Shown: positions 47,972 to 63,133, counted from the stretch's first letter. The stretch: DNA of 64,000 nt from an uncultured Bacilli bacterium (GCA_934096125.1 CAKOLB010000004.1:55117-119116); one strand, 5' to 3'. Made by a program: numbers and translations. The notes: generated by a model from the sequence alone, not told the origin.

Positions 47972-48037
47972 TTTGTCGGTTATTCTTGACAAAATTATAA
48001 TTACAATGTATATTATAGTTGTCGGGCAATCTTGACA
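47972..48037. promoter_or_regulatory. two copies of a 20-bp operator-like site overlapping -35 elements
   Basis: TTGTCGGTTATTCTTGACAA (47972-47991) and TTGTCGGGCAATCTTGACAA (48018-48037). Each is a TTGTC...GACAA inverted repeat containing TTGACA. The first TTGACA has a 17-nt spacer to TATATT. Confidence 0.5.
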
Positions 48038-48134
48038 AAAAAGGGGGATAGTAATAAAGTAGATTGCTAATGCGACTAATGTTCTTTGAAAATTTACACA
48101 AGTCTTTAAAGGTTAATTAAAAGGGGGTGATAGC

Positions 48135-48638
48135 ATAACAGAATCTATAAAAGATGGGTTTTGGATTATACCTGCAAAAGTAGGTATAGATGATGCACTC
48201 ACATTACAAGATAAATTACTATATGCTCAAATCTTATCATTAACAAGACAAGATGGATTCTGTTTTGCTACTAATTCTTATCTATCTAATTTAAATAATG
48301 TTACTCCAAAAACAATTTCTAACAGTATTTCTAATCTTAAAAAAAATAATTATATACGAGTTGAATATCACAAGGAAAAAATAAATAAAGATAAAAGAAA
48401 AATATTTGTAACTGATAAGGGGGTATGGAAAACAAATCCTGGGGATATAGAAAAAAATGTTAATACCGGTATGGAAGATAATTTCCAATATAATAATATA
48501 AAGAATAAAAAGATAAAAAAATATAATACCAATAATAATGTTCCTTGGTGGCTAGATAAAGAAATTAAAGAAAATCCTGCATCTCTAGAAGAACAAGCAG
48601 AGATGGAAGCACTACTAAGCGAATTTAAAAAAGATTGA
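48135..48638 (+). CDS. HTH_36-type winged-helix protein (plasmid/ICE replication- or regulation-associated), no canonical start codon
   Basis: The frame is open from 48117 to TGA 48636-48638 and encodes ...WIIPAKVGIDDALTLQDKLLYAQILSLTRQDGFCFATNSYLSNLNNVTPKTISNSISNLKKNNYIRVEY. The strong SD AAGGGGG (48121-48127) lies 7 nt before ATA 48135. The first in-frame ATG/GTG/TTG is not until about 48470. Confidence 0.55.
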   Translation: MTESIKDGFWIIPAKVGIDDALTLQDKLLYAQILSLTRQDGFCFATNSYLSNLNNVTPKTISNSISNLKKNNYIRVEYHKEKINKDKRKIFVTDKGVWKTNPGDIEKNVNTGMEDNFQYNNIKNKKIKKYNTNNNVPWWLDKEIKENPASLEEQAEMEALLSEFKKD

Positions 48639-48714
48639 AAAGGAGTTGGTTTTATAAATAAATACAAGACTAAATCATAAAATTTAATAAAAAGGAAAAG
48701 GGGGAATTATAAGA

Positions 48715-48846
48715 ATGGAGGTAGTACTTAAGGCAAAACACACATTTAAAACTGATATATCAAACGAAGAATTATTTAGAGATAGATTTAACGAGATATT
48801 GTTAAAAGTTATATTGCATCTTGAGCAAAATTACCAAAGTAGTTAA
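48715..48846 (+). CDS. small ORF (43 aa) immediately upstream of recombinase 1
   Basis: ATG 48715 preceded by AAAAGGGGG. Encodes MEVVLKAKHTFKTDISNEELFRDRFNEILLKVILHLEQNYQSS. Too short to appear in the track. Confidence 0.35.
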   Translation: MEVVLKAKHTFKTDISNEELFRDRFNEILLKVILHLEQNYQSS

Positions 48847-48937
48847 AAAAATTATAAATAACTATCAAAAAGGGGTATAATATAAGTTGTAGTCGATTTA
48901 GTTCTGATAGTTATACACAGAATTGGAGGATATAACT

Positions 48938-50533
48938 ATGAGACTAAGAGTTGGTATTTATGGGAGGTTATCACAAGAGGATATAGATAAGATAAACAAA
49001 GAAGATGAAAGTGAAAGTATCCAAAATCAAAAAAGAATGTTATTAGAGTATGCTTTAAAAAATGATTGGGATGTAGTTGATATTTATATTGATGAAGATT
49101 ATTCAGGTGCTGGAGTTTATAGACCAGAGTTTGAGAGAATGCTAAAAGATTGTGAAAATGGAAAACTAGATATAGTTTTATGTAAGAGTCAATCAAGATT
49201 CTCGAGAGATATGGAAATAATTGAAAGATATATAAATAACAAATTTAAAGAATGGAATGTTAGATTTATTAGTTTAGTAGATAATATAGATACTGATAAT
49301 AAATCTAATAAGAAATCTATTCAAATATTAGGACTAACTAATGAATGGTATTTAGAAGATTTATCAGATAACATTAAAAGAACAATTAGGAATAAAAAAG
49401 AGTCTGGACAATTTACTGGTTCATTTGCTCCCTATGGTTATTTAAGAAGTGAAGAAGATAAACACAAATTAGTTATTGATCCTATTGCTTCAATCATTGT
49501 TAAAAAGATATTTGAAATGTATAAACAAGGTAATGGTTATACTAAAATAGCAACTTATTTGAATGATACTAATGTTCCTAGTCCTTATGAACACAAAAAA
49601 GCAAGTGGTAGTAAATTTGTATGTGGAAATGTTGGAAAGGAAAAATCATATTGGTATTCAGATACAATTGCTAAAATCTTAAAAGATGAAGTATATATTG
49701 GAAATCTAGTACAAGGAAAAACAAGGCATATAAGTTATAAAAATAAAAAATCAGTTCCTGTTCCTAAAGAAGATTGGATAATTGTTAAAAACACACACGA
49801 ACCTATAATAGATGAAGATACTTGGAATATAGTTTCTGCTAAATTTAAAGGTAGGACAAAGCCAAGTAAATCTGGGGAAATTCATATGTTTACTAAAAAG
49901 GTTTATTGTGATTGTTGCAAAAAAATATTTTATAATGGTTATTCTAAATCAGGAAATGGGAACAAGCATTATTATTTAACTTGTAAGTCTAGAAAATCAG
50001 GGGTGTTTTGTGAAAATAATCTATCTATTAGAGTAGATAAATTAAAAGACTTTATCCTTAATGAGATTAATGAATATATCAAAGTTTATCATAATTCTAA
50101 AGCTTTAAATGAGAAATACCAAAAATTAAATACTAAGAATAATAAAAATGAGATTCAAGAACAAATTAAAACTTTGGAAAAACAACAAACTGAATTAGAA
50201 AAATCACAAAGTAAAAAGAATTCTTATTTAAGAAAATTATATGAAGATAGAATAGAGGGTTTCATTACTGATGAGCAATACAAAGCTTTTAGTAAAGACT
50301 ATGATGATGAATTAAATGAATTGCAAAACAGAATTCAATTAATAAAAGATGAAATCACTCTCTTAAATCAAAGGCACAGTGATATGATTGATAGAGATAA
50401 AATATTTAATAAATATAAATCTATAAAGGAATTAGATAGAAGTATATTAGATGATTTTATAGAAAAAATATATATCGGTGCAGTAGATAAAGAAACGAAT
50501 GAACGAGAAATAAATATTGTATGGGCCATATAA
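48938..50533 (+). CDS. large serine recombinase (resolvase domain, recombinase domain, zinc ribbon, coiled coil)
   Basis: VGIYGRLSQED catalytic-Ser motif, SIQNQ, YIDEDYSG, and SRFSRD. Cys cluster CDCC...C...C. C-terminal coiled coil with FIEKIYIG...REINIVW (DUF4368-like). Start at ATG 48938 behind GGAGG. Confidence 0.9.
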   Translation: MRLRVGIYGRLSQEDIDKINKEDESESIQNQKRMLLEYALKNDWDVVDIYIDEDYSGAGVYRPEFERMLKDCENGKLDIVLCKSQSRFSRDMEIIERYINNKFKEWNVRFISLVDNIDTDNKSNKKSIQILGLTNEWYLEDLSDNIKRTIRNKKESGQFTGSFAPYGYLRSEEDKHKLVIDPIASIIVKKIFEMYKQGNGYTKIATYLNDTNVPSPYEHKKASGSKFVCGNVGKEKSYWYSDTIAKILKDEVYIGNLVQGKTRHISYKNKKSVPVPKEDWIIVKNTHEPIIDEDTWNIVSAKFKGRTKPSKSGEIHMFTKKVYCDCCKKIFYNGYSKSGNGNKHYYLTCKSRKSGVFCENNLSIRVDKLKDFILNEINEYIKVYHNSKALNEKYQKLNTKNNKNEIQEQIKTLEKQQTELEKSQSKKNSYLRKLYEDRIEGFITDEQYKAFSKDYDDELNELQNRIQLIKDEITLLNQRHSDMIDRDKIFNKYKSIKELDRSILDDFIEKIYIGAVDKETNEREINIVWAI

Positions 50534-50550
50534 TTTAGTCCATACAGGAC

Positions 50551-50580
50551 TTGTGTAGAATAAACATAACCTCCACATGG
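50551..50580. repeat. attR of element 1 (P arm TTGTGTAGAATAA plus core ACATGG)
   Basis: Lies 18-47 nt after the recombinase stop. The arm is the inverted repeat of 42257-42269, and the core is identical to 42242-42247. Confidence 0.7.
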
Positions 50581-50806
50581 TGGTGATGATCCGGGGACTA
50601 TTGCAAATGGAATAACTGAAAAAGATTATACTTTGAAGATAACAAATTATATTCACAACAGATTAGATGAACTTGGAGTGCCAAATAAATTATCGAGGAG
50701 TACTGATGAGACTTTAGATGCCAGTAGTAGGCCACAGAGAATACAAAGTCTTTATGGAAATGGGAGTGATGTGATTGTTGTGTCTAATCACATAAATGCA
50801 GGGGGA
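50581..50806 (+). pseudogene. split Amidase_3-LysM hydrolase gene, segment 2 of 3
   Basis: Continues in frame from segment 1: (G)GDDPGTIANGITEKDYTLKITNYIHNRLDELGVPNKLSRSTDETLDASSRPQRIQSLYGNGSDVIVVSNHINAGG. It then diverges and stops at TAA 50816-50818. Confidence 0.8.
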
Positions 50807-50828
50807 CAGGACGCGTAATATGTGGTTA
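50785..50828. repeat. attL of element 2 (B arm TAATCACATA, core GGA, P' arm TATGTGGTTA)
   Basis: TAATCACATA at 50785-50794, GGA at 50804-50806, and TATGTGGTTA at 50819-50828. The last is the inverted form of TAACCACATA. Confidence 0.6.
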
Positions 50829-50928
50829 ATCGTAGGCGCAGTGTATAACTTTAATAAGCTTCTTATTTTACTGTATATGATGGTATAATAGATATATCAA
50901 ATAACTTTAAAGATGAGAGGTGAAAAGA

Positions 50929-51840
50929 ATGTTATATATAACTGGTGATACTCATGGAGATTTTTATAGATTTGGTCATTTAGGATTAAATGAAGGTGAT
51001 ATTATGATTATCTTAGGGGATGTGGGTATTAATTATTACTTAGATGAATATGATAAAAAGTTAAAGGAAAGATTAAAAAGATATAATTTTAAATTTTTCT
51101 GTATTCAAGGTAATCATGAAAAAAGACCAGAAAATATTTCAAGTTACCACGAAGTGGAAATGTTTGGCGGTAAAGTATTTGTAGAAGATGAATATCCTAA
51201 TTTAGTATTTGCTAAAAATGGAGAACTTTATAATATTGATGACAAAAGTATTTTAGTAATAGGTGGAGCTTATTCTATTGATAAAGATTATAGAATAAGT
51301 AAAGGATATCCTTGGTTCAAAGATGAACAATTAACTGAGAAAGAGAGACTAAATATATTGGACGAGTATTCTGGTAAACATGTGGATATAATTTTATCTC
51401 ATACTTGTCCATTAAGATATGAACCTAAAGAAAGCTTTAAATTAAGTTTGCCACAGATTGCGATAGATAAATCTATGGAGTATTTTCTAAATGAAGTAGA
51501 GCAAAGAGTAGATTATGGTAAATGGTATTGTGGACATTATCATTTAGAAAAAATTGTGGACAAGTTAGAGTTTATGTTTGGAAGAATTAAAAGTGTTGAC
51601 ACAGGAGAATTTATTCCTAAATATGATTTCCATAATGGCTACAAAATAGTTAGAGATGTATGTAGTCAAAAAGATTATAAATATTGTCCTGAATGTAAAG
51701 GAGATAATATAATTATAGAAAAAGGTGAAGGACATAATATTAATGGTTTAGATTTTATTGCTATCATTTGTAATGATTGTAAAAAAGTTTATGGATTTAA
51801 TGATGTTAATTATAAACGTAATTGTCCTAAAGAATTGTAA
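50929..51840 (+). CDS. calcineurin-like metallophosphoesterase with C-terminal zinc ribbon
   Basis: GDTHGD, GDVG, and QGNHE motifs, plus SHTCP. C-terminal CPECKG...CNDCKK. Confidence 0.7.
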   Translation: MLYITGDTHGDFYRFGHLGLNEGDIMIILGDVGINYYLDEYDKKLKERLKRYNFKFFCIQGNHEKRPENISSYHEVEMFGGKVFVEDEYPNLVFAKNGELYNIDDKSILVIGGAYSIDKDYRISKGYPWFKDEQLTEKERLNILDEYSGKHVDIILSHTCPLRYEPKESFKLSLPQIAIDKSMEYFLNEVEQRVDYGKWYCGHYHLEKIVDKLEFMFGRIKSVDTGEFIPKYDFHNGYKIVRDVCSQKDYKYCPECKGDNIIIEKGEGHNINGLDFIAIICNDCKKVYGFNDVNYKRNCPKEL

Positions 51841-51914
51841 CTGTGTTTACCAAATTTTAAAATTTATGCTATAATTAAGATGTAATAATTATTTGACTAA
51901 GTGTGGTGAGTAGT

Positions 51915-52550
51915 ATGGAGTATAGAAAATATTCATTTAGACATGCAGAAGATATTTTTAAAAACGATAAGGATTTTACTTATTTATGGAATGAAATTTT
52001 GGAAGTGCTTGATAGTATAAGCGATGATGATTTAATTAATGAATTTAACATTGAAACTAGAAAAGCAAAAAGCATTTCCGAAGCAATTAATAAATTAATT
52101 GCAAAAAGGCTAAGTGAAAAAGGATGGCATGAACAAAGTTACATTTTTGCTGACCCTGATTATTCTGATAATAAAGGTACATGGAGATTAGATTTTGCAA
52201 AAGATAATATTGCAATTGAAGTTGCATTTAATCATGGAGGAAATGTATCTTGGAATTTAATTAAGCCAGTATTATCTAGTGAATTAAATCATGTTAAAAA
52301 GGCAATACAAACTCAAGCTGGCGTTGTCATAACAGCAACTGATGCTATGAAAAAAGCCGGTGGATTTGATAATGCTATCGGTACCTATGAAAAATATGTT
52401 GAATATCTAAAACCATTAAATAATTTGTTAACCACACCTATGATGATAATAGGATTAGAACCACCAAAAAAGTTTACTATTGAGCAGAAAAAAGAAGATG
52501 GTAAAATGGTTGGACATGTTAAATTAAAAGAAGAAGATAATAACTTTTAG
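51915..52550 (+). CDS. BglII/BstYI-fold restriction endonuclease-like protein (orphan)
   Basis: WRLDFAKDNIAIEVAFNH...SSELNH...GVVITAT...TYEKY...MMIIGL parallels the BglII core DIDFGKRDTLVEVQFSN...SELFH...IIITK...LVGL as I recall it. The D-x8-E spacing is kept, but the E-V-Q glutamine position is Ala. Confidence 0.55.
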   Translation: MEYRKYSFRHAEDIFKNDKDFTYLWNEILEVLDSISDDDLINEFNIETRKAKSISEAINKLIAKRLSEKGWHEQSYIFADPDYSDNKGTWRLDFAKDNIAIEVAFNHGGNVSWNLIKPVLSSELNHVKKAIQTQAGVVITATDAMKKAGGFDNAIGTYEKYVEYLKPLNNLLTTPMMIIGLEPPKKFTIEQKKEDGKMVGHVKLKEEDNNF

Positions 52551-52601
52551 ACTTACAATTTTGTGAGTCTTTTTATTTTGAAAAAGAAAGGATACGATAT
52601 T

Positions 52602-52895
52602 ATGAAAATAAAAACAAATAGAGAAGAGGGTTATGTAGTTATGGGTAACTATCATCTAAGAGATAAAAAATTAAGCTTAAAAGCAAAAGGACTATTATCT
52701 ATAATGTTGTCATTACCAGACACATGGTGTTATTCCACGCTAGGATTATCTAGTATTTGTGTTGAAAGCAGGGATACAGTTAGAAATATATTAAAAGAAT
52801 TAAAGGAAGCAAAATATTTAAAGGTAGTTGAAAATAGAGATGAAAATGGTAGATTTAATTATGAATATGTAATTTATGAAAAACCCTATATGTAA
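52602..52895 (+). CDS. HTH_36-type winged-helix protein
   Basis: LSLKAKGLLSIMLSLPDTWCYSTLGLSSICVESRDTVRNILKELKEAKYLKV. Same family pattern as the ORF at 48135. Start set to ATG 52602. Confidence 0.55.
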   Translation: MKIKTNREEGYVVMGNYHLRDKKLSLKAKGLLSIMLSLPDTWCYSTLGLSSICVESRDTVRNILKELKEAKYLKVVENRDENGRFNYEYVIYEKPYM

Positions 52896-53069
52896 TAATC
52901 CATGGTATCATTACGGTTACATGGATTTCCGTATGCGGTTATTTATTCACAATAAATTATTTAGAAGTAATTAATAAAACAAATAGATAAAGTCGATAAA
53001 ACCTCTATCGATTCAAAAAAAGAGAAGGTTTTATAGTATAATTTCTCTTTTCATTGGTTAATTTAGCTA

Positions 53070-54467
53070 TTAAATAAATTCTTTTAATATATTTTCTAAG
53101 TATTTACTATTTAACCAAAAACAATGCTTTGTATATTCAGCTAATCCTGTTAACTTGTCTTTTACAGGTAATGGCAAAGTATCTTTTGAGTCTCTAGCAT
53201 GTGGTCTAACATGGCAAACTCCATTATCCCCGATTCCTGGAAAGTTAGTATTTCTTTTACCCATATTATCAATTGATTTAATAATATTTCCAGATAAAAT
53301 AATGTTTTTTGTATTATTCCACATATTTTTCACTTCATTTTCAAGTGTTAGTTCTGGCATGTTCCATAATTTTATACCACTAAAGATATAATCATTATCT
53401 TTCTTTTTAAATATAAAGAACATGTATTTTGTAGTTTCTAATTCTTCTTTTAACTTTGATTCTTCCCAATCAGTTGTTTTAAAATCCATATAATTGAAAT
53501 ATGGAAAAGGCATAGATTCTTTAATGTGTCCATTTTCTTCAACTCTGATTGTTCTTGGAACTATATTTGCTTTTTGGAATTCATCAGTATCACGAAGTCT
53601 AGATTTAACATTAAACATTCTAGCTATCAGTATTCCATTTAAATTTTTTGCATTAGAATCAATATTAAATTCATGCATTAATTGTTTTTGAGTTTTCCCC
53701 TGATATTTCTTGGTAACATTTTCAACAAATTCAGTAAATGATTCACCAGCATTTTTAATAACTTTTTCAACATCTTCATAATTTCCAATATATTTTCTAA
53801 CGAGTCCTGTCATATAAGAAGTTTTTAAACAAAATGCTCTTTGCTTTGCTTTAATTGATGAAAAAGGTTGTTCTCTAACGGATTTTTTATTTGCTCCTTT
53901 TGTACAAGCACCAAGATACATTGTATCTGCTTCTGATATCTCATGGGCTTTTCCTTGTTTAATTTTATTAATTATTGTTTCCCAATCCTTAATAATTATT
54001 GGTAAATCTTCTTTTGGAAATGTAAATAATAACTCGTGTGTTATTCTTAAATCATTTTTATTTTTGTGAGGTTCGTAAAAATACCAAATTATTTGAATTT
54101 TATTATTTTTAAACCAAAAATGACTAGAGTAAAATTCATTTTTATATTCATCCATATAATTAATTATGTTTAGAACAAGTCTTTCTTTAGCTGATAAAGT
54201 ATTGTCTTTGTTTTTCTTATACGGTGTAACTTTAAGTTCTATTCCCGCATCAATAAAGTCAGGCGCAGATATTGAATTAATGTTGTATCCATATACATTA
54301 GTTTCAAATAAATGACCAAAGAAAGCTTTATTAAACTTTTCATCATCTTTGTTATATTCATTGTTATAAATAGTTGTTACATTCATATTATTTAATTCTT
54401 TAAAAGTTTTTCCTAATGCACTTTTAGCTAAAATTTGAATTTCATCTTTTGTGTAACTTTTTGCCAT
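53070..54467 (-). CDS. MutH/Sau3AI-family type II restriction endonuclease
   Basis: N-terminal MutH-like core APDFIDAGIELKVTP (D...E-x-K). The size fits the two-domain Sau3AI type. Divergently paired with a C5 methyltransferase. Confidence 0.7.
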   Translation of the reverse strand: MAKSYTKDEIQILAKSALGKTFKELNNMNVTTIYNNEYNKDDEKFNKAFFGHLFETNVYGYNINSISAPDFIDAGIELKVTPYKKNKDNTLSAKERLVLNIINYMDEYKNEFYSSHFWFKNNKIQIIWYFYEPHKNKNDLRITHELLFTFPKEDLPIIIKDWETIINKIKQGKAHEISEADTMYLGACTKGANKKSVREQPFSSIKAKQRAFCLKTSYMTGLVRKYIGNYEDVEKVIKNAGESFTEFVENVTKKYQGKTQKQLMHEFNIDSNAKNLNGILIARMFNVKSRLRDTDEFQKANIVPRTIRVEENGHIKESMPFPYFNYMDFKTTDWEESKLKEELETTKYMFFIFKKKDNDYIFSGIKLWNMPELTLENEVKNMWNNTKNIILSGNIIKSIDNMGKRNTNFPGIGDNGVCHVRPHARDSKDTLPLPVKDKLTGLAEYTKHCFWLNSKYLENILKEFI

Positions 54468-54636
54468 AAAAATTTCCTTTCGATCTTGTTTTTATCTCAA
54501 AAATAATTTAAAATATATATATAGTGTTGATCTTTTTAAAATATTATTTTATAATTAATATGTAAGAAGTTGATCTTTTCGCTTAAATATATTATAATAT
54601 ATTTAAATATGTTTAACAATTATTAGGAGGCGTTTT

Positions 54637-55875
54637 ATGCAAAAAACAGTAGTAGAATTATTTGCCGGTGTTGGTGGATTTAGATGTGGATTAAATAATG
54701 TAAAATTAAAAGATAATAAAGTTATTGAAAAAGGTAATTGGAATTTTGTGTGGGCGAATCAATGGGAACCTTCTACTAAAACACAAGAGGCTTTTGAATG
54801 CTATTCAAAAAGATTTGGAAAGGATGATGTTAGTAATGTAGATATATTTCAAGTAAATAAAAAAGAGATACCTAATCATACTTTATTAGTTGGTGGTTTT
54901 CCATGTCAAGATTATTCTGTTGCACAGACACTATCTAATAGCAAAGGAATTGATGGAAAAAAAGGTGTTTTGTGGTGGGCAATTGCAGATATATTAAAAG
55001 TTAAGAAACCTCCATTTGTGTTTTTAGAAAATGTTGATCGCTTACTTCTTTCGCCAGCGAGTCAAAGAGGCAGAGATTTTGGAATAATTTTGAGAAGTTT
55101 TTATGAAAATGGATATGATTTAGAATGGCGAGTTATCAATGCGGGAGAATATGGATTTCAACAAAAACGTAGGAGAATTTATATAATTGCATATCACAAA
55201 TCAACTAAATATTGTAAGAAAATGAGAAAAATTGATAAGAAAAATATATTACTTAAGGAAGGTATTTTCATAAAACAGTTTCCTGTAAAAGAGAAAGAGT
55301 TTAACTCAAATGTATCAAGTATTTCAGAATATAAAGATTTAGTCGATGTTAGTGATAATTTTAAAAACCAATTTTATAATTCTGGAGTTATGATAAATGG
55401 TGAAATATATACTGCCAAATTAGAACATAATTGCGATAGTGTATATCAGTTAGGCAATTTAATAGAAACTAATAAGGTTGATGAAAAATATTTCCTTTCA
55501 AAAGATAGAATTGAGAAATTTAGAATATTAAAGGGAAGTAAAAGAATACCTAGAAAAAAGCCAAATGGAGATGATTACATTTATTCTGAAGGTTCAATGC
55601 CATTTCCTGATAATCTAAATGTTCCTGCTAGAACAATGCTGACTTCAGAAAGTGGAACTAGCAGAATGACACATGTTATAGAGGACTATAGAACTAAAAA
55701 ATTAAGATTTTTAACACCATTAGAGTGTGAAAGAATTAATGGATTTCCAGATAATTGGACAAATACTGGGATGAGTGATAAGAAACGATATTTCATGATG
55801 GGTAACGCTTTAGTAGTAAATGTTGTTGAAAAAATAGGGATTGAATTGGAAAAAATAGTAGAAATGGAAGAGTAA
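54637..55875 (+). CDS. DNA (cytosine-5)-methyltransferase, Sau3AI-type (GATC specificity inferred)
   Basis: Motif I ELFAGVGGF, motif IV GGFPCQDYS, motif VI LENVDRLL, motif VIII QQKRRRIYIIA, and motif X GNALVV. WANQWEPS and SPASQRGRDF resemble M.Sau3AI-like enzymes. Confidence 0.85.
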   Translation: MQKTVVELFAGVGGFRCGLNNVKLKDNKVIEKGNWNFVWANQWEPSTKTQEAFECYSKRFGKDDVSNVDIFQVNKKEIPNHTLLVGGFPCQDYSVAQTLSNSKGIDGKKGVLWWAIADILKVKKPPFVFLENVDRLLLSPASQRGRDFGIILRSFYENGYDLEWRVINAGEYGFQQKRRRIYIIAYHKSTKYCKKMRKIDKKNILLKEGIFIKQFPVKEKEFNSNVSSISEYKDLVDVSDNFKNQFYNSGVMINGEIYTAKLEHNCDSVYQLGNLIETNKVDEKYFLSKDRIEKFRILKGSKRIPRKKPNGDDYIYSEGSMPFPDNLNVPARTMLTSESGTSRMTHVIEDYRTKKLRFLTPLECERINGFPDNWTNTGMSDKKRYFMMGNALVVNVVEKIGIELEKIVEMEE

Positions 55876-55984
55876 ATGAAAAAATGTTAAAATTTGGTAA
55901 TTTATCTAAATAGTGTTATAATTTTATACAGAAGATATGCAGTATTTGTCTTTTTAAGATGGATACTGCATTTTTTTGAAGTAG

Positions 55985-56950
55985 GTGGTAGTATTGGATT
56001 CACTTAATTATGAAGTTTTTAAAAAAATAAAGAAATATTATAATGATAATTGCAAACCTTTAATTTTTGTTGGAGAAAAATTATTATCGCAGAATAACAA
56101 ATGTAAAATGTATTTTTGTGATGTTGATTTAAATCAAGAAAAAGAAAATTATAGAAAAGTTTTTCAAGAATATTTGGCACTTTATGTTAGAAATCATGAT
56201 TTGCTAAAATATTATGATAAGATTATAAAAAGTGAAACAGAAGATGAAATTTCAGAAGCTTTAATTTATTATGGAAATGATTTGTGGAATAATACCGTAT
56301 TGATAACTACAACTACACCAGAGACTTTAGGGATATATGGAGAAGCCATTAATGATTTTTATTTAAATATTGTTAAGAATGAAAATATAATTATCACTTA
56401 TTCAGCAAAAAGGGGGTATGGTGAACGTAATATAAAAGGGGTAGATGTAGTTGCATGTACTTGGAAAAAAGATAATCTTGTACTAATATTTTCTGAGTGT
56501 AAATTTGTCGAATCAATATATAAGGCGTCGTGTGGTTTATATAATGATATAAAGGGAACTCAATATGAATTGGCACATATAAGTAAAGATTATATAAACG
56601 GATATTCTACTTATATTGTTGATAATGCTCATTCAATTTTTGCAGAGAGTAATAATTCAGATAAAATTATAGATGTTTTGGACAAATTGAATAGTAGGAT
56701 AATAAATGGAAACAAGGCGATAGATGTGTTTAATGAATTAAACATAAAAATTCAATTTAATTTCTTTGCAATTTACTGTGATAATAAATTTACACCAGAT
56801 GAAAGACAAATAATGTTTGAAAAAGTATATAATGCTTTTTATGAAAATGTAAAATTAACAGGTATTAAAAATTATGATATGGAAATTGTGTATATACCTA
56901 TTAAAAATACAAGCTCTGTGGTAAAGGAATGTATGAGACAATGGAATTGA
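55985..56950 (+). CDS. HamA-like (DUF1837-type) PD-(D/E)xK nuclease candidate, first gene of a Hachiman-like pair
   Basis: 321 aa, with GVDVVACTWKKDNLVLIFSECKF giving a D...E-x-K arrangement. Overlaps the downstream helicase gene by 22 nt. Confidence 0.5.
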   Translation: MVVLDSLNYEVFKKIKKYYNDNCKPLIFVGEKLLSQNNKCKMYFCDVDLNQEKENYRKVFQEYLALYVRNHDLLKYYDKIIKSETEDEISEALIYYGNDLWNNTVLITTTTPETLGIYGEAINDFYLNIVKNENIIITYSAKRGYGERNIKGVDVVACTWKKDNLVLIFSECKFVESIYKASCGLYNDIKGTQYELAHISKDYINGYSTYIVDNAHSIFAESNNSDKIIDVLDKLNSRIINGNKAIDVFNELNIKIQFNFFAIYCDNKFTPDERQIMFEKVYNAFYENVKLTGIKNYDMEIVYIPIKNTSSVVKECMRQWN

Positions 56951-59322
56951 CACGAAATACAATTGTAAAGAAAATAAATTTATTTTCAATGGAAAGGAAT
57001 AATAAAGAATTAATAAATCTACTATGTGATATTTTAGAAAGTAAAAATTACATGGATAATTATGATCTTATTTTAATTATAATAAATATTGCCGAACTTT
57101 ATGGTTATCAAGAATTTTTTAATAATTTTGATGCAAATAGTATACCTAAATATAACGTGCATGCAATATCTAATGATATTAGAAAAAATCTATATAAAAG
57201 CAAAAAAGGTAATAATATATATTATAATTCTGGACAATTATCTTTATTAAAAGAATTATCACTATATGATAAGCTTTTTATATCAGCTCCCACGTCATTT
57301 GGTAAAACCAGTTTAGTTTTAGAGCATATAGCAATGAATAACTCAATATATAAAACTATTATTTTTTTAGCTCCAACTAATGCATTAGTAGAAGAATTGT
57401 ATCTAAAATTTTTAAAATTAAATAAAGAATGTAATTTAAATTATGATGTAATAACAATGCCAAAAAATAAAAATAATAATACAATATGGATATTAACACC
57501 AGAGAAATTTTTACTTTTGGTTGAAGAAAAAAGTATAGATTTTGATTTGATAGTTATGGATGAGGCTTATAAAATTGAAAATGAAGAATCAATTGATAGA
57601 AAAGATATTTTAAATTCTAGGTCAAGCAAATATAGGAAAGTAATGGAATATATGGCTAATTCTAATTCGAAGATTATATTTTTATCTCCATATACTTATA
57701 ATAAGGCGCCATCTATGACAAGATTCTTAAAAAAATATAGTATCAAGGATATTGACAGGAATATTAATTATGTAAAAAAAGACATAATAGATATTTATGA
57801 TAGCAAAAGTTATAAAAGTAATTTTTCCAATAGTATATTTAGTATTAAAAAAGGTGATTCTGGGATTAAAAAAGCAATGGCAGCTGTTCCCTATTTATCT
57901 GATAATACAATTATATATGTAAAATATCCAAGTGAGGCAATAAAAGTTTTAGAATTAATGCCTAATGAAAAAGCAAGTATAGATAATGAAAGATTTAAAA
58001 AATTTTTGAACCATTTAAAAGAAAATTATTTATTTGAAGACAGCAATTGGTATATTATAGATGCTCTAGAAAAGGGAATTGGCATATATGTATCACCTAT
58101 TCCTCGATATATAAAAAAAGAAATAATATATTTATTTAATAAGGGAATAATAAAAAAACTTATAGTTACAACTGCATTTGCTGAAGGAGTTAATAGTTCA
58201 GCTAAGAACATAATTATAACAAATAGAATAACAGGATCTAATAAAAAACTAACTAATTTGGATATATTGAATTTAAGTGGTAGAGCAGGCAGATTTGGTG
58301 TATATAGCAAAGGAAAAGTTTTTTCTGCAGTTGAAGAAGTAAGTGATATTTTAAGAAAATCATCTGAAAATGGAGTAATTATAAATAATCCTAATTACGA
58401 ATTAGCAAGTGATATTATACCTAGAACTGATTATGAAATCGATATGATAGATGATTATCTATTAAATGAAGAAGAAAAAAATATAAAGGAAACCACAAAA
58501 AAAAGGCAATTAAATTTTAATTTGACCAACGATGATTTAAATATAGCTTTATCAATTGCAAATGAAATAAAAATCGATGTATATTCATATTTTTTTGAAA
58601 CAATTAACAATGGAAAAATTCAAGATATAAGATTTAATAATATTAAAAATTTATTGTCTACAGAGAAAAATGATATTATAAAATCAATTACATTTATTTT
58701 TAACGAATTAAAAAATGCAGATATTCCAATAGTTTCAGATTTTGGTGATATTAATCCATTTAATAGTAAAGGTGATTTTATTTGGGGCATTTTTTACGGA
58801 ATCCACTCTTCAGGAAATATTAGAGATGTTTTGAAATCAAGAAAAGGCTTTATTTTAAAACAGTTAAGTGAAATTGAAAAAATATTAAATTTAAAACTTA
58901 AAAATTTTAATAATAAAGAAATAGAAAAAATATTACGTGAGTACGATAAAAAATGGATATACGATTATTTAACTAAAGGTGAAATTGATGATGCAAAACT
59001 ATATAATGGTGCATTTAAATTTATATCAAACATAATTGAATATAGAATACCATTTTATATTGGATTGTATATATCAGTTTTTAAAATGTTTTGTAGAAAG
59101 AATAATTTAAATTATGATTTTAATTTTGATATTGTTGAAATATCTACATCATTAGAAAATAAAAATATAGAAAAAAAGTATTCTGATATGTTGGAATTTG
59201 GCATACCATTAGATACAATCAAAAAGATAAATAAATTTAAAAATGATAATAATATTTTTGAAATATTAGATGATTATGAAAAAATTATGTTAAGTGAATA
59301 TAATTACTATTTTGATAAATAA
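56929..59322 (+). CDS. HamB-like SF2 (Ski2/Hel308-like) helicase
   Basis: Motif I SAPTSFGKTS, Ia LAPTNALVEE, II VMDEAYK, V TTAFAEGVN, and VI LSGRAGRFG. 797 aa with a long C-terminal domain. Confidence 0.6.
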   Translation: MYETMELTRNTIVKKINLFSMERNNKELINLLCDILESKNYMDNYDLILIIINIAELYGYQEFFNNFDANSIPKYNVHAISNDIRKNLYKSKKGNNIYYNSGQLSLLKELSLYDKLFISAPTSFGKTSLVLEHIAMNNSIYKTIIFLAPTNALVEELYLKFLKLNKECNLNYDVITMPKNKNNNTIWILTPEKFLLLVEEKSIDFDLIVMDEAYKIENEESIDRKDILNSRSSKYRKVMEYMANSNSKIIFLSPYTYNKAPSMTRFLKKYSIKDIDRNINYVKKDIIDIYDSKSYKSNFSNSIFSIKKGDSGIKKAMAAVPYLSDNTIIYVKYPSEAIKVLELMPNEKASIDNERFKKFLNHLKENYLFEDSNWYIIDALEKGIGIYVSPIPRYIKKEIIYLFNKGIIKKLIVTTAFAEGVNSSAKNIIITNRITGSNKKLTNLDILNLSGRAGRFGVYSKGKVFSAVEEVSDILRKSSENGVIINNPNYELASDIIPRTDYEIDMIDDYLLNEEEKNIKETTKKRQLNFNLTNDDLNIALSIANEIKIDVYSYFFETINNGKIQDIRFNNIKNLLSTEKNDIIKSITFIFNELKNADIPIVSDFGDINPFNSKGDFIWGIFYGIHSSGNIRDVLKSRKGFILKQLSEIEKILNLKLKNFNNKEIEKILREYDKKWIYDYLTKGEIDDAKLYNGAFKFISNIIEYRIPFYIGLYISVFKMFCRKNNLNYDFNFDIVEISTSLENKNIEKKYSDMLEFGIPLDTIKKINKFKNDNNIFEILDDYEKIMLSEYNYYFDK

Positions 59323-59333
59323 AATCATGTCCG

Positions 59334-59362
59334 TTGACTGTCCTATAAATTTATGGTAAAAT
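59334..59362 (+). promoter_or_regulatory. near-consensus sigma-A promoter in the hamB-to-59637 intergenic region
   Basis: TTGACT (59334-59339), 17-nt spacer ending in TGG, then TAAAAT (59357-59362). Confidence 0.5.
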
Positions 59363-59636
59363 GGTAATATAGGATAAGTGTAAGAGATGCAAATTTATGA
59401 GAGGATTTTCCCTCTTTTTTTGTGTCTTTAAAAAAAATTATCTTTTTGAAAGAAAGGTAAATTTTATCTAAAATATTCTAAACTGTCGGAGACTATTAGT
59501 GGGTTTTAGGGATATTCCCTAACAAGCTAGATGGGTGTGTATACACCATGCTTGATATATTATATTACACGGGTATGTAACCTCAAAATAGGATTTAATG
59601 GTAATCTGAAATGTGGTATGAAATGAAAGGAGAAAT

Positions 59637-60209
59637 ATGGAATTTAAGTCAATGGAGAAGTGGCGTGTTTTACAGAAGTTTAAAATTAGCGAAAAACAGT
59701 ATAAGAGATTAGTGAAAAGATTAAAAAGAAGACATCCTAATGAAAGATGGATTGATGAACATTTTGCTCAAAATGGTGAAAGAGTAGTATATCTAAAATT
59801 AGAATTTGTAGAATGGATAGAAGAAGTTTATTTAAATAACAATCTATTTTATTTAGATGCTGAAATTGTTTTCTTTAAAAAGCAAATATTAAGACTAGAA
59901 GATGAATTAAATTTTCCTCATAGTGGGTTTGAATATGAAGATATATCTTTAAAAGATTTAAGGGAGTATTTTAATAAGAGTAAAGATGTGATAGGTGTTG
60001 CAATAAATAGAATGGAAAAGAGAAATGATAAATCATTCAAGTATATAAAAGATGCTAAAGTTATGATTAATAAAGAAGGCGTTAAATGGTTAAGTGAAAA
60101 CTATTTCCGTAAAGATTATTTAAAAAAGTTAGAATTTTATAAATTAGAACTTCAAAATGTTAAGAGAAAAAGAAATAGATTAAAAGAATATAGTATTTTC
60201 TATTACTAA
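59637..60209 (+). CDS. hypothetical basic protein (190 aa), element-encoded
   Basis: GGAG RBS before the ATG. K/R-rich N-terminus (KQYKRLVKRLKRRHPNERW) and a K/R-rich C-terminal tail. No family recognised. Confidence 0.5.
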   Translation: MEFKSMEKWRVLQKFKISEKQYKRLVKRLKRRHPNERWIDEHFAQNGERVVYLKLEFVEWIEEVYLNNNLFYLDAEIVFFKKQILRLEDELNFPHSGFEYEDISLKDLREYFNKSKDVIGVAINRMEKRNDKSFKYIKDAKVMINKEGVKWLSENYFRKDYLKKLEFYKLELQNVKRKRNRLKEYSIFYY

Positions 60210-60312
60210 CTAGATTAGTTTGGAATATAACTAATTTTTTTATGTCCTAATTTTGATAATAAAGTCTTATAGTTGTTCTTATTTCATAAAATGAAAGGAG
60301 AGGTGTAGATTA

Positions 60313-60405
60313 GTGAATATAACTGAAACTTTCGATAAAGATAAAAACTTGGTTGAATTAATAGAGGAGTATTTAAAATTGATGTTAGAAAATAGTAAGC
60401 AATAA
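60313..60405 (+). CDS. small ORF (30 aa) immediately upstream of recombinase 2
   Basis: GTG 60313 lies 10 nt after GGAGAGG. Encodes VNITETFDKDKNLVELIEEYLKLMLENSKQ. Same position relative to the recombinase as ORF 48715. Confidence 0.3.
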   Translation: MNITETFDKDKNLVELIEEYLKLMLENSKQ

Positions 60406-60463
60406 GAGTTTGTGATATAATGATATTGCTTATTGAAGTTATACACGTTGGAAGGAGTAGTAA

Positions 60464-62089
60464 GTGTATAACAATGTAATACAAGCACCAAGTTTTTATA
60501 GAGTAGGTATATATATCAGATTATCAGAAAGTGATGAAGATAAAACTTATGAGTCAGAGAGTGAAAGTATAATCAATCAAAGAAATTTATTAATGGATTA
60601 TGTAAAAATGAGTGGATTTACTTTGGTTGATGAGTATGTAGATGATGGATTTACAGGAACTAACTTTGATAGGCCTTCTTTTCAAAGATTATTAAAAGAT
60701 ATTGAAAGTGGTCGAATCAATTGTGTAATCACAAAAGACTTATCAAGATTAGGTAGAGATTATATTCAATGTGGATATTATGTAGAACAATATTTTCCAC
60801 AAAAGAAAATTAGATATATTTCTATACTAGATCAAGTTGATACATTTCTAGAAAGTGCTAATAATGACATTGCTCCATTTAAAGCTTTGTTTAATGATAT
60901 GACTAGTAAGGATACTTCTAAGAAGATTCGTTCAATATTAAAAAATAAAAAAGAACAGGGTAAATTTATTGGAAGCAAACCATGTTATGGATATATGAGA
61001 GATCCACTTGATAAAGGACATTTAATACCCAATCCAGAAGTTGCTCCTGTTGTTAAAAGGATATTTAAAATGGCTCATTCTGGAACTGGAGTAAGTGATA
61101 TAGTATCATACTTAAATGATAATAAGATATTAAGCCCTAGTATGTATAAAAATACTAAATCATCTTCAAGACAAAAAGTGAATGTATGGACAATATCCTC
61201 AGTCAACAAATTACTAAAAAATAGAATGTATACAGGAGATATGGTACAAAATGTTCAAACTAAGTTAAGTTATAAATCTCAGAAGAAAGTTGCTTTAGAA
61301 AAAGAGTTTTGGATAATAGTTGAAAATACTCATGAACCTCTTGTTAGTAAAACAGTATTTGAAGCAATACAAAATGCTCCTGCTAGAGTAAGGACAACCC
61401 ATTGTAATAGAGAAAAAAGATTATTAGAAAATCTTCTTGTTTGCAAAGAATGTGGAAACTCTTTAAGCGTTCTTTATAGAAAAAATAAAAATTATAAGGG
61501 TGGAAAGTATTGGAGTGTTAATTGCAATAAATATGCAAGAGATCCAAGAAGACATTTGTGCTATCCACACTTCTTTCCTTATGATAAACTAGAAGAAAAA
61601 ATAATGAGTGTTATTAAAACTACTTGTCAAAAATATTTAGATAGTTTAAATATCAAAGAATTATCTGAAAGAGTATTACAAGATAGAGCAAAGGAAAAGA
61701 ATGATAGGCAAAAGGAAAAGCAACAATTATTAAATGAGATTGATGAATTAAAAAGAAAATCTGATGCTTTATATGATGACAAATTTAATGGAATAATAAG
61801 TGTTGATACTTATACAAGAATCTCTGCACAAACTGAAAAACAAATATCAGCCTTAAATTATAGAATTTATGAAATAGATAATGAAGAAAATCAGATTAAA
61901 GAAGATACAAAAGAAATAACTAAATATGAAGAACAAATAAAATCACTTTTAAATTTAGATGAACCCAACAGAGAACTCATAAAAACTTTAGTAAAAAAAA
62001 TTTATATAGATAAAGATAGAAATATAGAAATTCAATATAGATTTAAGGTGCTAGATGATATAAAAACTAATTATGAAGAAATAAATTAA
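60464..62089 (+). CDS. large serine recombinase (second, distinct copy)
   Basis: VGIYIRLSESDED catalytic-Ser motif, SIINQ, YVDDGFTG, and LSRLGRD. Zinc ribbon CKECG...C...C. C-terminal coiled coil with LVKKIYID...IEIQYRF. Confidence 0.9.
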   Translation: MYNNVIQAPSFYRVGIYIRLSESDEDKTYESESESIINQRNLLMDYVKMSGFTLVDEYVDDGFTGTNFDRPSFQRLLKDIESGRINCVITKDLSRLGRDYIQCGYYVEQYFPQKKIRYISILDQVDTFLESANNDIAPFKALFNDMTSKDTSKKIRSILKNKKEQGKFIGSKPCYGYMRDPLDKGHLIPNPEVAPVVKRIFKMAHSGTGVSDIVSYLNDNKILSPSMYKNTKSSSRQKVNVWTISSVNKLLKNRMYTGDMVQNVQTKLSYKSQKKVALEKEFWIIVENTHEPLVSKTVFEAIQNAPARVRTTHCNREKRLLENLLVCKECGNSLSVLYRKNKNYKGGKYWSVNCNKYARDPRRHLCYPHFFPYDKLEEKIMSVIKTTCQKYLDSLNIKELSERVLQDRAKEKNDRQKEKQQLLNEIDELKRKSDALYDDKFNGIISVDTYTRISAQTEKQISALNYRIYEIDNEENQIKEDTKEITKYEEQIKSLLNLDEPNRELIKTLVKKIYIDKDRNIEIQYRFKVLDDIKTNYEEIN

Positions 62090-62195
62090 ATAATAAAAAT
62101 AGGGTGGTAAAATTTGGTAATCACACAATCTTACCATCCCCTATACTATTTTTAGAAAAAATAAAAACGCAGTAAAATCAAGAAAAATGATAGCC

Positions 62196-62218
62196 TAATC
62201 ACATAAAATCTTTCCGGA
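62196..62218. repeat. attR of element 2 (P arm TAATCACATA plus core GGA)
   Basis: TAATCACATA at 62196-62205 and GGA at 62216-62218. About 107-129 nt after the recombinase stop. Confidence 0.6.
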
Positions 62219-63133
62219 GGTGGCGATGGTGCAGAAGTAATATATGCTCTTAGAAATAATGATGTATTTGCAAGTAAAATTGCAAGAGAACTAGAGAGTG
62301 CAGGACAAAATATTAGAAAATATTATCAGAGAAGACTTCCAAGTAATCCAGCGAAAGATTATTATTATATAATGCGAGATACTCCTAATAATGAAACTGT
62401 AATTGTAGAGTATGGGTTTGCAGATTCTACTGGTGATGATGTTGAGCAGTTAAAAAATACTTGGGAAAACTTAGCAGAAGCGGTGGTTAAAGCAATTACT
62501 GAGTATGCTGGCGGTACTTATACACTTCCAAATACGGGCAATTATTACATAGTTAAAAGTGGTGATAGTCTATGGAGCATATCCAAAAAAACAGATGTTT
62601 CTATTGCCAAGATTAAGGAACTTAATAATCTTAAGAGTAATTTGTTAAGTATTGGTCAGAAATTAACATTACCACAAACAAGTGAAGATACCCCATCGCT
62701 AGATACATATATTGTTCAAAAAGGCGATAGTTTATATAAAATCGCTAACAAGTTTAATACTACTGTTGATAACTTAAAACTTATTAACAATCTTCAAAGC
62801 AATAATTTAGCTATAGGTCAAAAATTAAAGGTAAGTAGTAGTGAAAACAAATACACAGTGCAAAAAGGTGATACACTATACAGCATTGCCACTAAATTTT
62901 CTGTTAGTGTAGATTCATTAAAAAACGCTAATAATTTAGTTAGTAACACAATTGCCGTTGGTCAATCCTTAATTATCCCAGAACAAAAAACAACTAAAAC
63001 TTATACGGTTCAAAAAGGCGATAATCTTTATAGCATAGCAAGGCGATATAATACGACTGTAAATACAATAATGTCTTTAAATAATCTAGCTTCAACTAAT
63101 TTAACTATCGGTCAAAAGCTACTTGTTCCGTAA
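62219..63133 (+). pseudogene. split Amidase_3-LysM hydrolase gene, segment 3 of 3 (end of the Amidase_3 domain plus four LysM repeats)
   Basis: The frame of ORF 62372..63133 is open upstream to 62216 and reads GGGDGAEVIYALRNNDVFASKIARELESAGQ...YYYIMRDT...VEYGFADS. Four Y-x-V-x-x-GD-(S/T/N)-L-(Y/W)-x-I-(A/S) LysM units follow. Confidence 0.8.
62543..63130 (+). repeat. four tandem LysM domain-coding repeats
   Basis: YYIVKSGDSLWSISKK..., TYIVQKGDSLYKIANK..., KYTVQKGDTLYSIATK..., TYTVQKGDNLYSIARR..., each ending in IGQKL or VGQSL. Confidence 0.85.

What the first reader, a model, noticed from the sequence alone, without database searches (positions are those of the whole stretch)
50929..52550. 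Orphan BglII-fold nuclease next to a zinc-ribbon metallophosphoesterase: possibly a second nuclease sharing the GATC methylase
The 211-aa protein at 51915-52550 follows the BglII/BstYI core pattern (LDFAKDNIAIEVAF, SSELNH, VVITAT, IIGL) with the D-x8-E spacing. The residue at the BglII glutamine position is Ala, and no methyltransferase is adjacent. Characterised members of this fold (BglII AGATCT, BstYI RGATCY, and the related BamHI) all cut sites with a GATC core. The only methylase on the element is the Sau3AI-type enzyme 2 kb away, which would modify every such site. One methylase could therefore protect against two nucleases. Alternatively the protein is a non-classical effector working with the upstream metallophosphoesterase (GDTHGD, GNHE, C-terminal CxxC...CxxC), a pairing I cannot assign to a described defence system.
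Basis: inference. Interest (0 to 1): 0.6.

Follow-up and report, generated by a model that had tools for sequence, protein, structure and literature searches.

The report
Second GATC restriction nuclease sharing one methylase
The 211-aa protein is an intact BglII-type restriction enzyme whose relatives almost always sit beside a Sau3AI-type GATC cytosine methylase, so here it is a second nuclease relying on the methylase 2 kb away; the neighbouring phosphoesterase is not its partner.

Summary
Window 51915-52550 encodes a BglII/BstYI-fold protein (Pfam PF09195 above cut-off). Its AlphaFold model matches only BglII, BstYI, BamHI and OkrAI, and the D93-x8-E102 catalytic pair is intact.

I fetched 80 species-level loci using this protein alone. 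In 76 of them a full-length orthologue of the window's 412-aa C5 methylase lies nearby, usually within 0.7 kb. Identities of nuclease and methylase co-vary (r=0.84). This family is therefore the nuclease of a GATC/m5C restriction-modification system.

In 15 of the 80 loci a Sau3AI-family nuclease is also present, in at least eight gene orders.

The "orphan" label and the phosphoesterase pairing are not supported. No phosphoesterase homologue occurs in any of the 80 loci. The phosphoesterase and the HTH gene are backbone genes of a serine-recombinase island. The nuclease is a 718-bp promoter-gene-terminator cassette inserted between them.

Recognition sequence and cleavage are inferred, not shown. 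This is a modestly new variant of a known kind of system.

The parts
51846..51875 (+). Promoter-like site for R1 (TTTACC-18-TATAAT with TG-extended -10), inside the R1 cassette
   Evidence: Consensus scan. Promoter-like hits in this region as a whole are not above chance. However, a TGnTATAAT element at the same distance from the ATG is also present in L024 and L016.
51850..52567 (+). 718-bp R1 cassette (promoter, gene, hairpin) inserted between the island backbone genes for the phosphoesterase and the HTH_36 protein
   Evidence: Window 50865-51849 and 52568-53003 match L119 4940-5922 and 5943-6376, which lie only 20 bp apart in L119. Nearly the same block (51856-52576) abuts the methylase in L024/L025. 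The block 51862-52543 stands alone in L004-L023.
51915..52550 (+). R1: BglII/BstYI-fold type II restriction endonuclease, 211 aa; D93, E102 and Q74 form the predicted metal site
   Evidence: PF09195 at 45.2 bits. PDB profile hits to BstYI and BglII. AF2 pLDDT 82 and pTM 0.83; Foldseek top 14 hits are BglII, BstYI, BamHI and OkrAI only. D93 and E102 are invariant in 81 of 81 sequences. dN/dS is 0.06-0.2.
52549..52570 (+). Terminator-like hairpin plus T-run directly after the R1 stop codon
   Evidence: A similar hairpin follows R1 in L024.
52563..52895 (+). HTH_36 protein (97-110 aa) resembling the N-terminal DNA-binding domain of phage replication initiators; island backbone gene, not part of the R-M set
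   Evidence: PF13730 E=4.4e-7. phrog_428 E=6.5e-19. A 56%-identical homologue directly follows the phosphoesterase in L119. Absent from all 80 R1 loci.
53070..54467 (-). R2: Sau3AI-family type II restriction endonuclease, 465 aa
   Evidence: NCBIfam NF040973 equivalog, 497 bits against a cut-off of 300. MutH domain E=2.6e-30. PADLOC REase_II E=3e-105.
54482..54598 (.). R2-M intergenic control region with three GATC sites (54482, 54529, 54572); two of them lie in TTGATC -35 hexamers of promoter-like sites facing M
   Evidence: GATC is otherwise four-fold depleted in the window. In the 73 loci where it could be measured, the 200 bp upstream of M holds 1.12 GATC on average against 0.47 expected.
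54637..55875 (+). M: Sau3AI-type C5 cytosine methyltransferase, 412 aa; inferred to make GAT(m5C) and to protect against both R1 and R2
   Evidence: PF00145 E=2.2e-65. TIGR00675. Orthologues at 40-83% identity lie next to R1 in 76 of 80 loci. GATC specificity is inferred from the pairing with a Sau3AI-family nuclease and from PMC3287169 and PMC4471560.
50929..51840 (+). Metallophosphoesterase with C-terminal zinc ribbon; first backbone gene of the island, not a partner of R1
   Evidence: PF00149 and phrog_1649. Zero of 80 R1 loci carry a homologue. An 80%-identical copy heads a different island that carries a YobI ATPase. A 68%-identical copy sits beside HEPN_AbiU2 and Cas9.
50804..62300 (+). 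Approximate extent of the carrying island: phosphoesterase, R1, HTH_36, R2, M, Hachiman HamA/HamB, a 190-aa ORF and a large serine recombinase (60464-62089), inserted in an Amidase_3-LysM gene
   Evidence: The left end is defined by contigs with different upstream flanks, whose homology starts at 50750-50804. An amidase fragment lies at 50633-50818 and the LysM part at 62372-63133. The right end is not mapped precisely.

Best explanation
R1 (51915-52550) is an active BglII-fold type IIP restriction endonuclease. By analogy with its structural relatives it should act as a homodimer on a palindrome with a GATC core, most likely GATC itself, and cut unmethylated DNA to leave 5' GATC overhangs. 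It would be blocked when the GATC cytosine carries a 5-methyl group. That methyl group is supplied by the Sau3AI-type C5 methylase at 54637-55875. The same methylase also licenses the Sau3AI-family nuclease R2 (53070-54467) next to it. One methylase therefore protects the host from two nucleases of different families. R1 entered this island as a self-contained 718-bp cassette between two backbone genes, in a genome already methylated at GATC. Shown here: the fold, the catalytic residues, family-wide linkage to this methylase, recurrence of the two-nuclease arrangement, purifying selection and the cassette boundaries. Inferred: the recognition sequence, the cleavage chemistry, the methylation sensitivity and any benefit of having two nucleases.
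For: Fold and active site:
- PF09195 scores above its cut-off.
- The family profile hits BstYI and BglII, with D93/E102 aligned to the catalytic D84/E93 of BglII.
- The AF2 model (pLDDT 82) matches only BglII, BstYI, BamHI and OkrAI (E 5e-9 to 1e-4); the next hit has E of at least 0.08.

Linkage to the methylase:
- 80 loci from 80 species were fetched using R1 alone. 76 of them carry a full-length orthologue of the window's methylase, 75 within 2.2 kb.
- All three viral contigs with R1 also carry it.
- The 4.76-kb Macrococcus plasmid pMP21332_4 carries only rep, R1 and dcm.
- R1 and M identities to the window co-vary (Pearson r=0.84, n=73).

Two-nuclease arrangement:
- A Sau3AI-family nuclease is also present in 15 of 80 loci, in at least eight gene orders. 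These loci concentrate in Bacillales and Clostridia clades of the R1 tree.
- All 15 keep the R1 catalytic residues.
- On plasmid pBEH1, R1 lies 10 kb from a Sau3AI R-M pair and has no methylase of its own.

Selection:
- dN/dS is 0.06-0.2 for R1 in every comparison with meaningful divergence.

Specificity context:
- GATC is the most depleted 4-bp palindrome in the window (O/E 0.25), in R1+M loci (0.70) and in two-nuclease loci (0.56).
- M.Sau3AI makes GAT(m5C) (PMC3287169).
- Sau3AI-type methylation by M.DpnIII blocks BglII, BamHI and Sau3AI (PMC4471560).
- Every characterised PF09195 member cuts a GATC-core site, including R.Nph3I at RGATCY (PMC10734518).
Against: - No biochemical data exist for any member of this subfamily in the material I could search.
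- PADLOC and NCBIfam have no specific model for it.
- The BglII Gln95 position is Ala or Gly throughout the family, so catalysis may differ in detail.
- About a quarter of the most distant family representatives lack the catalytic Glu.
- Copies 91% identical to the window's stand alone in a sister species, with no such methylase within 8-10 kb. A strict dependence on an adjacent methylase does not predict this.
- The two search patterns used to fetch the 80 loci include E102, N106, H107 and N114. Their invariance is therefore partly built in; D93, K129 and D152 are free of this bias.
- GATC depletion could come from deamination of m5C rather than from restriction.
Confidence: 0.8

Rival explanations
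1. R1 is an active nuclease protected by the same methylase, but it recognises only a 6-bp subset of GATC sites (such as RGATCY or AGATCT). It would then differ from R2 in target range rather than duplicate it.
For: All characterised PF09195 members recognise 6-bp sites: BglII at AGATCT, BstYI at RGATCY (PDB hits) and R.Nph3I at RGATCY. A GATC methylase would cover any such subset.
Against: In 61 loci the only adjacent methylase is a 4-bp GATC type and R1 is the only nuclease. In those loci GATC depletion shows no flank preference: RGATCY O/E 0.93, YGATCR 0.95 and RGATCR 1.06, conditional on GATC. This test is weak, because depletion may be mutational.
Confidence: 0.3
2. R1 in the window is a selfish or transitional passenger. 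On this view a nuclease gene landed in an already methylated genome and is in the course of replacing R2 or being lost, with no added defence value.
For: R1 is a discrete 718-bp cassette with the same ends in three unrelated contexts. In L024/L025 it occupies the place upstream of M that R2 occupies in the window. Its position and orientation relative to M vary widely.
Against: Strong purifying selection (dN/dS 0.06-0.2) and intact catalytic residues. The two-nuclease state is kept across deep branches in two Firmicute clades. The window and L028 show similar divergence for R1 and M (dS 1.12 and 1.18). The island is found unchanged in many metagenomes; its phosphoesterase is indexed in 77 blocks of the collection.
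Confidence: 0.15
3. R1 works with the upstream zinc-ribbon metallophosphoesterase as a two-gene defence effector that is independent of methylation.
For: The genes are adjacent and on the same strand in the window, 75 bp apart. The phosphoesterase has a weak PADLOC hit to the candidate PDC-S10 (E=8e-4), and homologues lie in defence islands.
Against: Zero of 80 R1 loci and zero of three viral loci contain a phosphoesterase homologue. In L119 the phosphoesterase is followed directly by the HTH_36 gene, with no R1. R1 has its own promoter-like site and terminator-like hairpin. The phosphoesterase family is phage-typical: phrog_1649, found in 154 phage records.
Confidence: 0.03
4. R1 is a catalytically dead DNA-binding protein, for example a regulator of the R-M genes, rather than a nuclease.
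For: The Gln95-equivalent position is Ala. Some distant relatives lack the catalytic Glu.
Against: D93 and E102 are invariant, and position 74 is always E or Q apart from one K, in the 81 sequences closest to the window protein. In about 60 loci R1 is the only nuclease candidate next to the methylase. PGAP annotates plasmid copies as restriction endonuclease.
Confidence: 0.04

Closest known systems
BstYI (RGATCY) and BglII (AGATCT), Pfam PF09195; more distantly BamHI and OkrAI
   Same: Same fold (Foldseek E 5e-9 to 1e-4). Same D-x8-E catalytic spacing and a similar size of about 200-220 aa. Presumably a GATC-core target.
   Different: Only 16-20% sequence identity. The Gln after the catalytic Glu is replaced by Ala or Gly family-wide. 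The partner here is a C5 methylase for 4-bp GATC. From my own knowledge, not checked here, BglII and BamHI have N4-cytosine methylases specific for their 6-bp sites. Specificity of R1 is untested.
Sau3AI / LlaKR2I / DpnIII restriction-modification systems (GATC, m5C)
   Same: Same methylase type. The window's M is divergently paired with an NF040973 Sau3AI-family nuclease. GAT(m5C) blocks cleavage (PMC4471560, PMC3287169).
   Different: The described systems are reported as one nuclease plus one methylase (PMC4471560). Here, and in 15 of 80 related loci, a second nuclease from a different family (BglII/BstYI rather than MutH/Sau3AI) is attached to the same methylase.
R.Nph3I / M.Nph3I of Nitratiruptor phage NrS-3 (PMC10734518)
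   Same: A PF09195 nuclease shown experimentally to cut a GATC-core site, with an adjacent methylase.
   Different: Nph3I recognises RGATCY and is paired with an m6A methylase. It has no second nuclease.
DpnII cassette (two methylases, one nuclease; described in PMC4471560)
   Same: A GATC-targeting type II system with an unequal number of modification and restriction genes.
   Different: It is the mirror image: two methylases serve one nuclease, whereas here one methylase serves two nucleases.

Membership tests
BglII/BstYI family type II restriction endonuclease (PF09195) | Sequence match to the family model above the curated threshold | tested here: met
   45.2 bits against a cut-off of 26, E=1.1e-11, covering 162 of 163 model positions. 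All 120 listed homologues carry PF09195. PGAP gives this name to plasmid homologues.
BglII/BstYI family type II restriction endonuclease (PF09195) | BamHI/BglII-like alpha/beta fold | tested here: met
   AF2 pLDDT 82 and pTM 0.83. The top 14 Foldseek PDB hits are exclusively BglII, BstYI, BamHI and OkrAI.
BglII/BstYI family type II restriction endonuclease (PF09195) | Catalytic Asp and Glu in D-x8-E spacing | tested here: met
   D93 and E102 align to BglII D84 and E93. Both are invariant in 81 of 81 sequences, although E102 lies in one of the two search patterns.
BglII/BstYI family type II restriction endonuclease (PF09195) | Gln two residues after the catalytic Glu (BglII Q95; 'EVQF' in BstYI) | tested here: not met
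   A104 in the window. The family has Ala in 74 and Gly in 7 of 81 sequences. This marks a distinct subfamily and does not exclude it from the fold.
BglII/BstYI family type II restriction endonuclease (PF09195) | Mg-dependent cleavage of a palindromic GATC-core site | not testable with these tools
   Needs purified protein. Inferred only from the relatives and from the partner methylase.
Type II restriction-modification system | Nuclease gene genetically linked to a methylase gene across genomes | tested here: met
   76 of 80 species loci, 3 of 3 viral contigs and a minimal plasmid. Identity correlation r=0.84. In the window the gap is 2.09 kb, with R2 and an HTH gene in between.
Type II restriction-modification system | The methylase modifies every site the nuclease can cut | not testable with these tools
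   GATC/m5C specificity of M is inferred from its pairing with a Sau3AI-family equivalog and from the literature. R1 specificity is unknown.
Sau3AI-family R-M (the R2-M pair in the window) | NF040973 equivalog nuclease plus an adjacent C5 methylase | tested here: met
   497 bits against a cut-off of 300. PF00145 E=2.2e-65. The genes are divergent, with a 169-bp spacer.
Solitary (orphan) restriction endonuclease | No cognate methylase in the same element | tested here: not met
   The family's usual methylase is in the same island, 2.09 kb away. True solitary copies exist elsewhere: L004-L011, L015-L023 and L055.
   Zero of 80 R1 loci carry a homologue. Phosphoesterase homologues occur without R1 in L114-L119.

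The most novel reading that the evidence does not exclude
Nuclease genes of this family move as solo promoter-gene-terminator cassettes into genomes whose GATC sites are already m5C-methylated. The resulting two-nucleases-one-methylase cassettes are then kept by selection. The two nucleases have unrelated architectures: a two-site looping Sau3AI type and a single-site dimeric BglII type. They would cover each other's blind spots, such as single-site DNA or nuclease-specific anti-restriction proteins. Solitary copies in sister species would rely on a methylase encoded far away.
Probability: 0.35. Interest if true: 0.6.

Novelty: new variant of a known kind. Interest (0 to 1): 0.45.

Why it matters
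Restriction-modification is usually described as one nuclease matched to one methylase. Here one GATC cytosine methylase is repeatedly attached to two nucleases from different families, in about a fifth of the species carrying this nuclease family. In the window the second nuclease arrived as a precisely bounded 0.7-kb cassette. This gives a concrete, testable case of how nuclease genes are added or swapped around a resident methylase, and of whether doubling nucleases broadens defence. It also points to an uncharacterised nuclease subfamily (331 clusters at 50% identity) that probably cuts GATC and is blocked by m5C. The basic mechanism is ordinary type II restriction, and annotation pipelines already name the protein family.

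Tried and rejected
- **Phosphoesterase partnership.** tblastn of the phosphoesterase against all R1 loci gave no hit outside the identical island. Contexts of phosphoesterase homologues show it is island backbone. Rejected.
- **HTH_36 and R2 as one 1.9-kb insertion between R1 and M.** The comparison with L024/L025 suggested this. I revised it after L119 showed that HTH_36 is a backbone gene and R1 is the inserted piece.
- **Terminal repeats around the R1 cassette.** Only short AT-rich chance matches were found, so there is no transposon-like signature.
- **Flank bias of GATC depletion, to separate 4-bp from 6-bp recognition.** No bias was seen, but the test is weak.
- **Literature.** Six full-text searches found no description of this subfamily or of a Sau3AI plus BglII-like two-nuclease cassette. 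REBASE could not be consulted.
- **Diverse alignment as a locus query.** The 40-sequence alignment A1 was too variable for locus searching; A2 was used instead.
- **First phosphoesterase look-up.** It used the GTG start and found nothing. The ATG start at 50929 worked.
- **Single-sequence PDB search.** It was dominated by spurious repeat-protein hits. The profile search was clean.
- **Promoter scan.** The number of hits is not above chance for the region, so individual sites are only suggestive.

Full report
**What is at the coordinates**

The window is low-GC (about 28%) DNA, probably from a Firmicute. Between 50.8 and 62.3 kb it carries, in order:
- a 61-aa remnant of an Amidase_3 gene (50633-50818);
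- a metallophosphoesterase (50929-51840, PF00149, phrog_1649);
- the flagged protein R1 (51915-52550);
- a 97-110-aa HTH_36 protein (52563-52895);
- a Sau3AI-family nuclease R2 on the minus strand (53070-54467; NF040973, 497 bits against a cut-off of 300);
- a 412-aa C5 cytosine methylase M (54637-55875);
- Hachiman HamA and HamB (55985-59322);
- a 190-aa ORF;
- a large serine recombinase (60464-62089);
- the LysM part of the interrupted amidase gene (62372-63133).

**R1 is a BglII-fold nuclease with an intact active site**

- Pfam PF09195 matches end to end at 45.2 bits, against a cut-off of 26.
- A profile built from 40 diverse relatives finds only BstYI (E=1.8e-9) and BglII (E=1.4e-7) in the PDB. 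It aligns 'LDFAKDNIAIEVAF' with BglII 'IDFGKRDTLVEVQF'. This places D93 and E102 on the catalytic D84 and E93, and A104 on Q95.
- An AlphaFold2 model (pLDDT 82, pTM 0.83) has as its 14 best PDB matches only BglII, BstYI, BamHI and OkrAI. The next hit has E of at least 0.08.
- The family is sizeable. It has 2169 sequences at E up to 1e-3 in the 90% clusters and 331 clusters at 50% identity.
- NCBI's pipeline names plasmid copies 'BglII/BstYI family type II restriction endonuclease'. NCBIfam and PADLOC have no specific model for this subfamily.

**Its partner across genomes is the window's methylase**

I fetched 80 loci from 80 species using R1 alone. They span Bacilli, Clostridia, Flavobacteriia, Campylobacterota, Actinomycetota, Saccharibacteria and one archaeon. 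I then searched these loci with the window's other proteins.

- A full-length orthologue of M (40-83% identity) is present in 76 of 80 loci. It usually lies 5-700 bp from R1 and appears in all relative orientations.
- Of the four exceptions, two are cut by contig ends (L045, L089) and two are truly solitary (L023, L055).
- The three viral contigs that carry R1 also carry M.
- The 4.76-kb Macrococcus plasmid pMP21332_4 holds only rep, R1 and dcm.
- R1 and M identities to the window co-vary (r=0.84, n=73).
- Vsr, the usual companion of C5 methylases, is present in 15 loci. A C-protein is present in 4.

R1 is therefore the nuclease of a type II R-M system built on a Sau3AI-type methylase.

**Two nucleases with one methylase is a recurrent arrangement**

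- A Sau3AI-family nuclease accompanies R1 and M in 15 of 80 loci: L028, L034, L037, L039, L040, L046, L051, L053, L060, L064, L078, L086, L088, L093 and L099. At least eight gene orders occur. L060 has the window's order, with vsr in place of the HTH gene.
- These loci concentrate in two Firmicute clades of the R1 tree and also occur sporadically elsewhere, which argues for long retention.
- All 15 keep D93 and E102, and have E or Q at position 74.
- On Priestia filamentosa plasmid pBEH1, R1 lies 10 kb from a Sau3AI R-M pair and has no methylase of its own.
- R1 is under purifying selection in every context (dN/dS 0.06-0.2). For the window against L028, R1 and M have similar dS (1.12 and 1.18).

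**Specificity is an inference**

- M.Sau3AI makes GAT(m5C) (PMC3287169).
- The Sau3AI-type methylase M.DpnIII protects DNA from Sau3AI, BglII and BamHI (PMC4471560).
- Every characterised PF09195 enzyme cuts a GATC-core site, including R.Nph3I at RGATCY (PMC10734518).
- GATC is the most depleted 4-bp palindrome in each set tested:
  - the window: 44 observed against 179 expected, O/E 0.25;
  - R1+M loci: O/E 0.70;
  - two-nuclease loci: O/E 0.56;
  - the species with solitary R1: O/E 0.23.
- There is no further bias by flanking bases. This fits 4-bp recognition, but only weakly, because m5C deamination could cause the same depletion.

**How R1 came to sit here**

- The island recurs unchanged behind different upstream flanks in many gut metagenomes. 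Its left end lies at about 50750-50804.
- An 8.3-kb element (42248-50574) lies just upstream in the window. It carries a Mob_Pre relaxase, an AAA ATPase and another serine recombinase. One contig, L106, lacks it.
- A related island, L119, has the phosphoesterase (80% identity) followed 20 bp later by the HTH_36 gene, and carries different cargo (a YobI ATPase).
- Against L119, window 51850-52567 is a clean 718-bp insertion. It holds an extended -10 promoter-like site, R1 and a terminator-like hairpin.
- Nearly the same block abuts the M promoter region in L024/L025, where R2 is absent.
- The same block also stands alone in a sister species. There it shows 86% nucleotide identity to the window, while core genes are about 70% identical.
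- No terminal repeats flank the block.

The phosphoesterase and the HTH gene are therefore island backbone. R1 is an independently acquired cassette, placed 0.5 kb from a pre-existing R2-M pair. The phosphoesterase is of a type common in phages (154 phage records), and its homologues appear with other cargo.

**Verdict**

The 'orphan' label and the phosphoesterase pairing are not supported.

The mechanism is ordinary type II restriction. The recurring two-nuclease architecture and the solo nuclease cassette are modestly new. I found no description of them in six full-text searches, and I could not consult REBASE.

Open points:
- biochemical proof of activity and specificity;
- the source of protection in genomes with solitary copies;
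- the loss of the catalytic Glu in some distant relatives.

Noticed in passing
window 42248-50574 and 50804-62300: Two mobile elements, each ending in a large serine recombinase (48923-50533 and 60464-62089), sit in tandem inside one Amidase_3-LysM gene. Contig L106 lacks the first element precisely. Related species carry other defence cargo at the same site, behind 89-97-aa amidase fragments (MmeI-like methylase, EcoRI-type methylase with GmrSD, D12 methylase, YobI ATPase).
   Followed up: partly
window 54482-54598: Three GATC sites lie within 91 bp of the R2-M spacer, although GATC is four-fold depleted overall. Two of them form the TTGATC -35 hexamers of promoter-like sites facing M. This suggests methylation-dependent control of the methylase gene. 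In the 73 loci where it could be measured, GATC is about 2.4-fold enriched in the 200 bp upstream of M.
   Followed up: partly
L004-L011, L015-L023 (e.g. L016 10001-10633): Solitary R1 copies (91% aa identity) are fixed between a 62-aa ORF and a 572-aa protein that has no Pfam or PADLOC hit, next to AbiD and an HtrA-like protease. No GATC-type C5 methylase lies within 8-10 kb, yet dN/dS is below 0.3 and GATC O/E is 0.23.
   Followed up: partly
L052 10650-11273 (also L066, L075, L079, L087, L092, L095): Flavobacterial R1-M cassettes hold a conserved gene of about 207 aa between R1 and M. It has a PD-(D/E)xK-like 'VDLII...YIDEKAQ' motif and no Pfam or PADLOC hit. An HTH_3 controller-like gene sits upstream in four loci (three of them in this group). 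This may be another kind of second nuclease.
   Followed up: partly
L114 4428-5921: A 68%-identical homologue of the zinc-ribbon phosphoesterase lies 10 bp downstream of a HEPN_AbiU2 gene and directly upstream of a type II CRISPR-Cas9 locus. The phosphoesterase family (4954 homologues at E up to 1e-10) may have its own defence-island association.
   Followed up: no
alignment A1: About a quarter of the most distant R1-family representatives (such as P0162, P0186, P0211, P0220, P0222, P0232, P0252, P0261) have H, V, A, L, N or Q in place of the catalytic Glu. D93 stays nearly invariant.
   Followed up: no
window 43679-45910: A 743-aa AAA_13/ABC-type ATPase with PADLOC PDC-S06 hits (E=1.2e-11) is the apparent cargo of the upstream element, next to a Mob_Pre relaxase (42374-43633).
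   Followed up: no
L103 (Staphylococcus simulans plasmid NZ_CP095106.1, 4050 bp): This small plasmid carries R1 and rep. Its M gene spans the record origin and aligns in two pieces that suggest a frameshift. It may be a nuclease with a broken methylase, or a sequencing error.
   Followed up: no
window 55985-56950: The HamA partner of the clear HamB helicase matches HamA models only weakly (PADLOC E=2.3e-4; Pfam HamA listed as 'weak' in the contig gene tables), so it is a divergent Hachiman.
   Followed up: no
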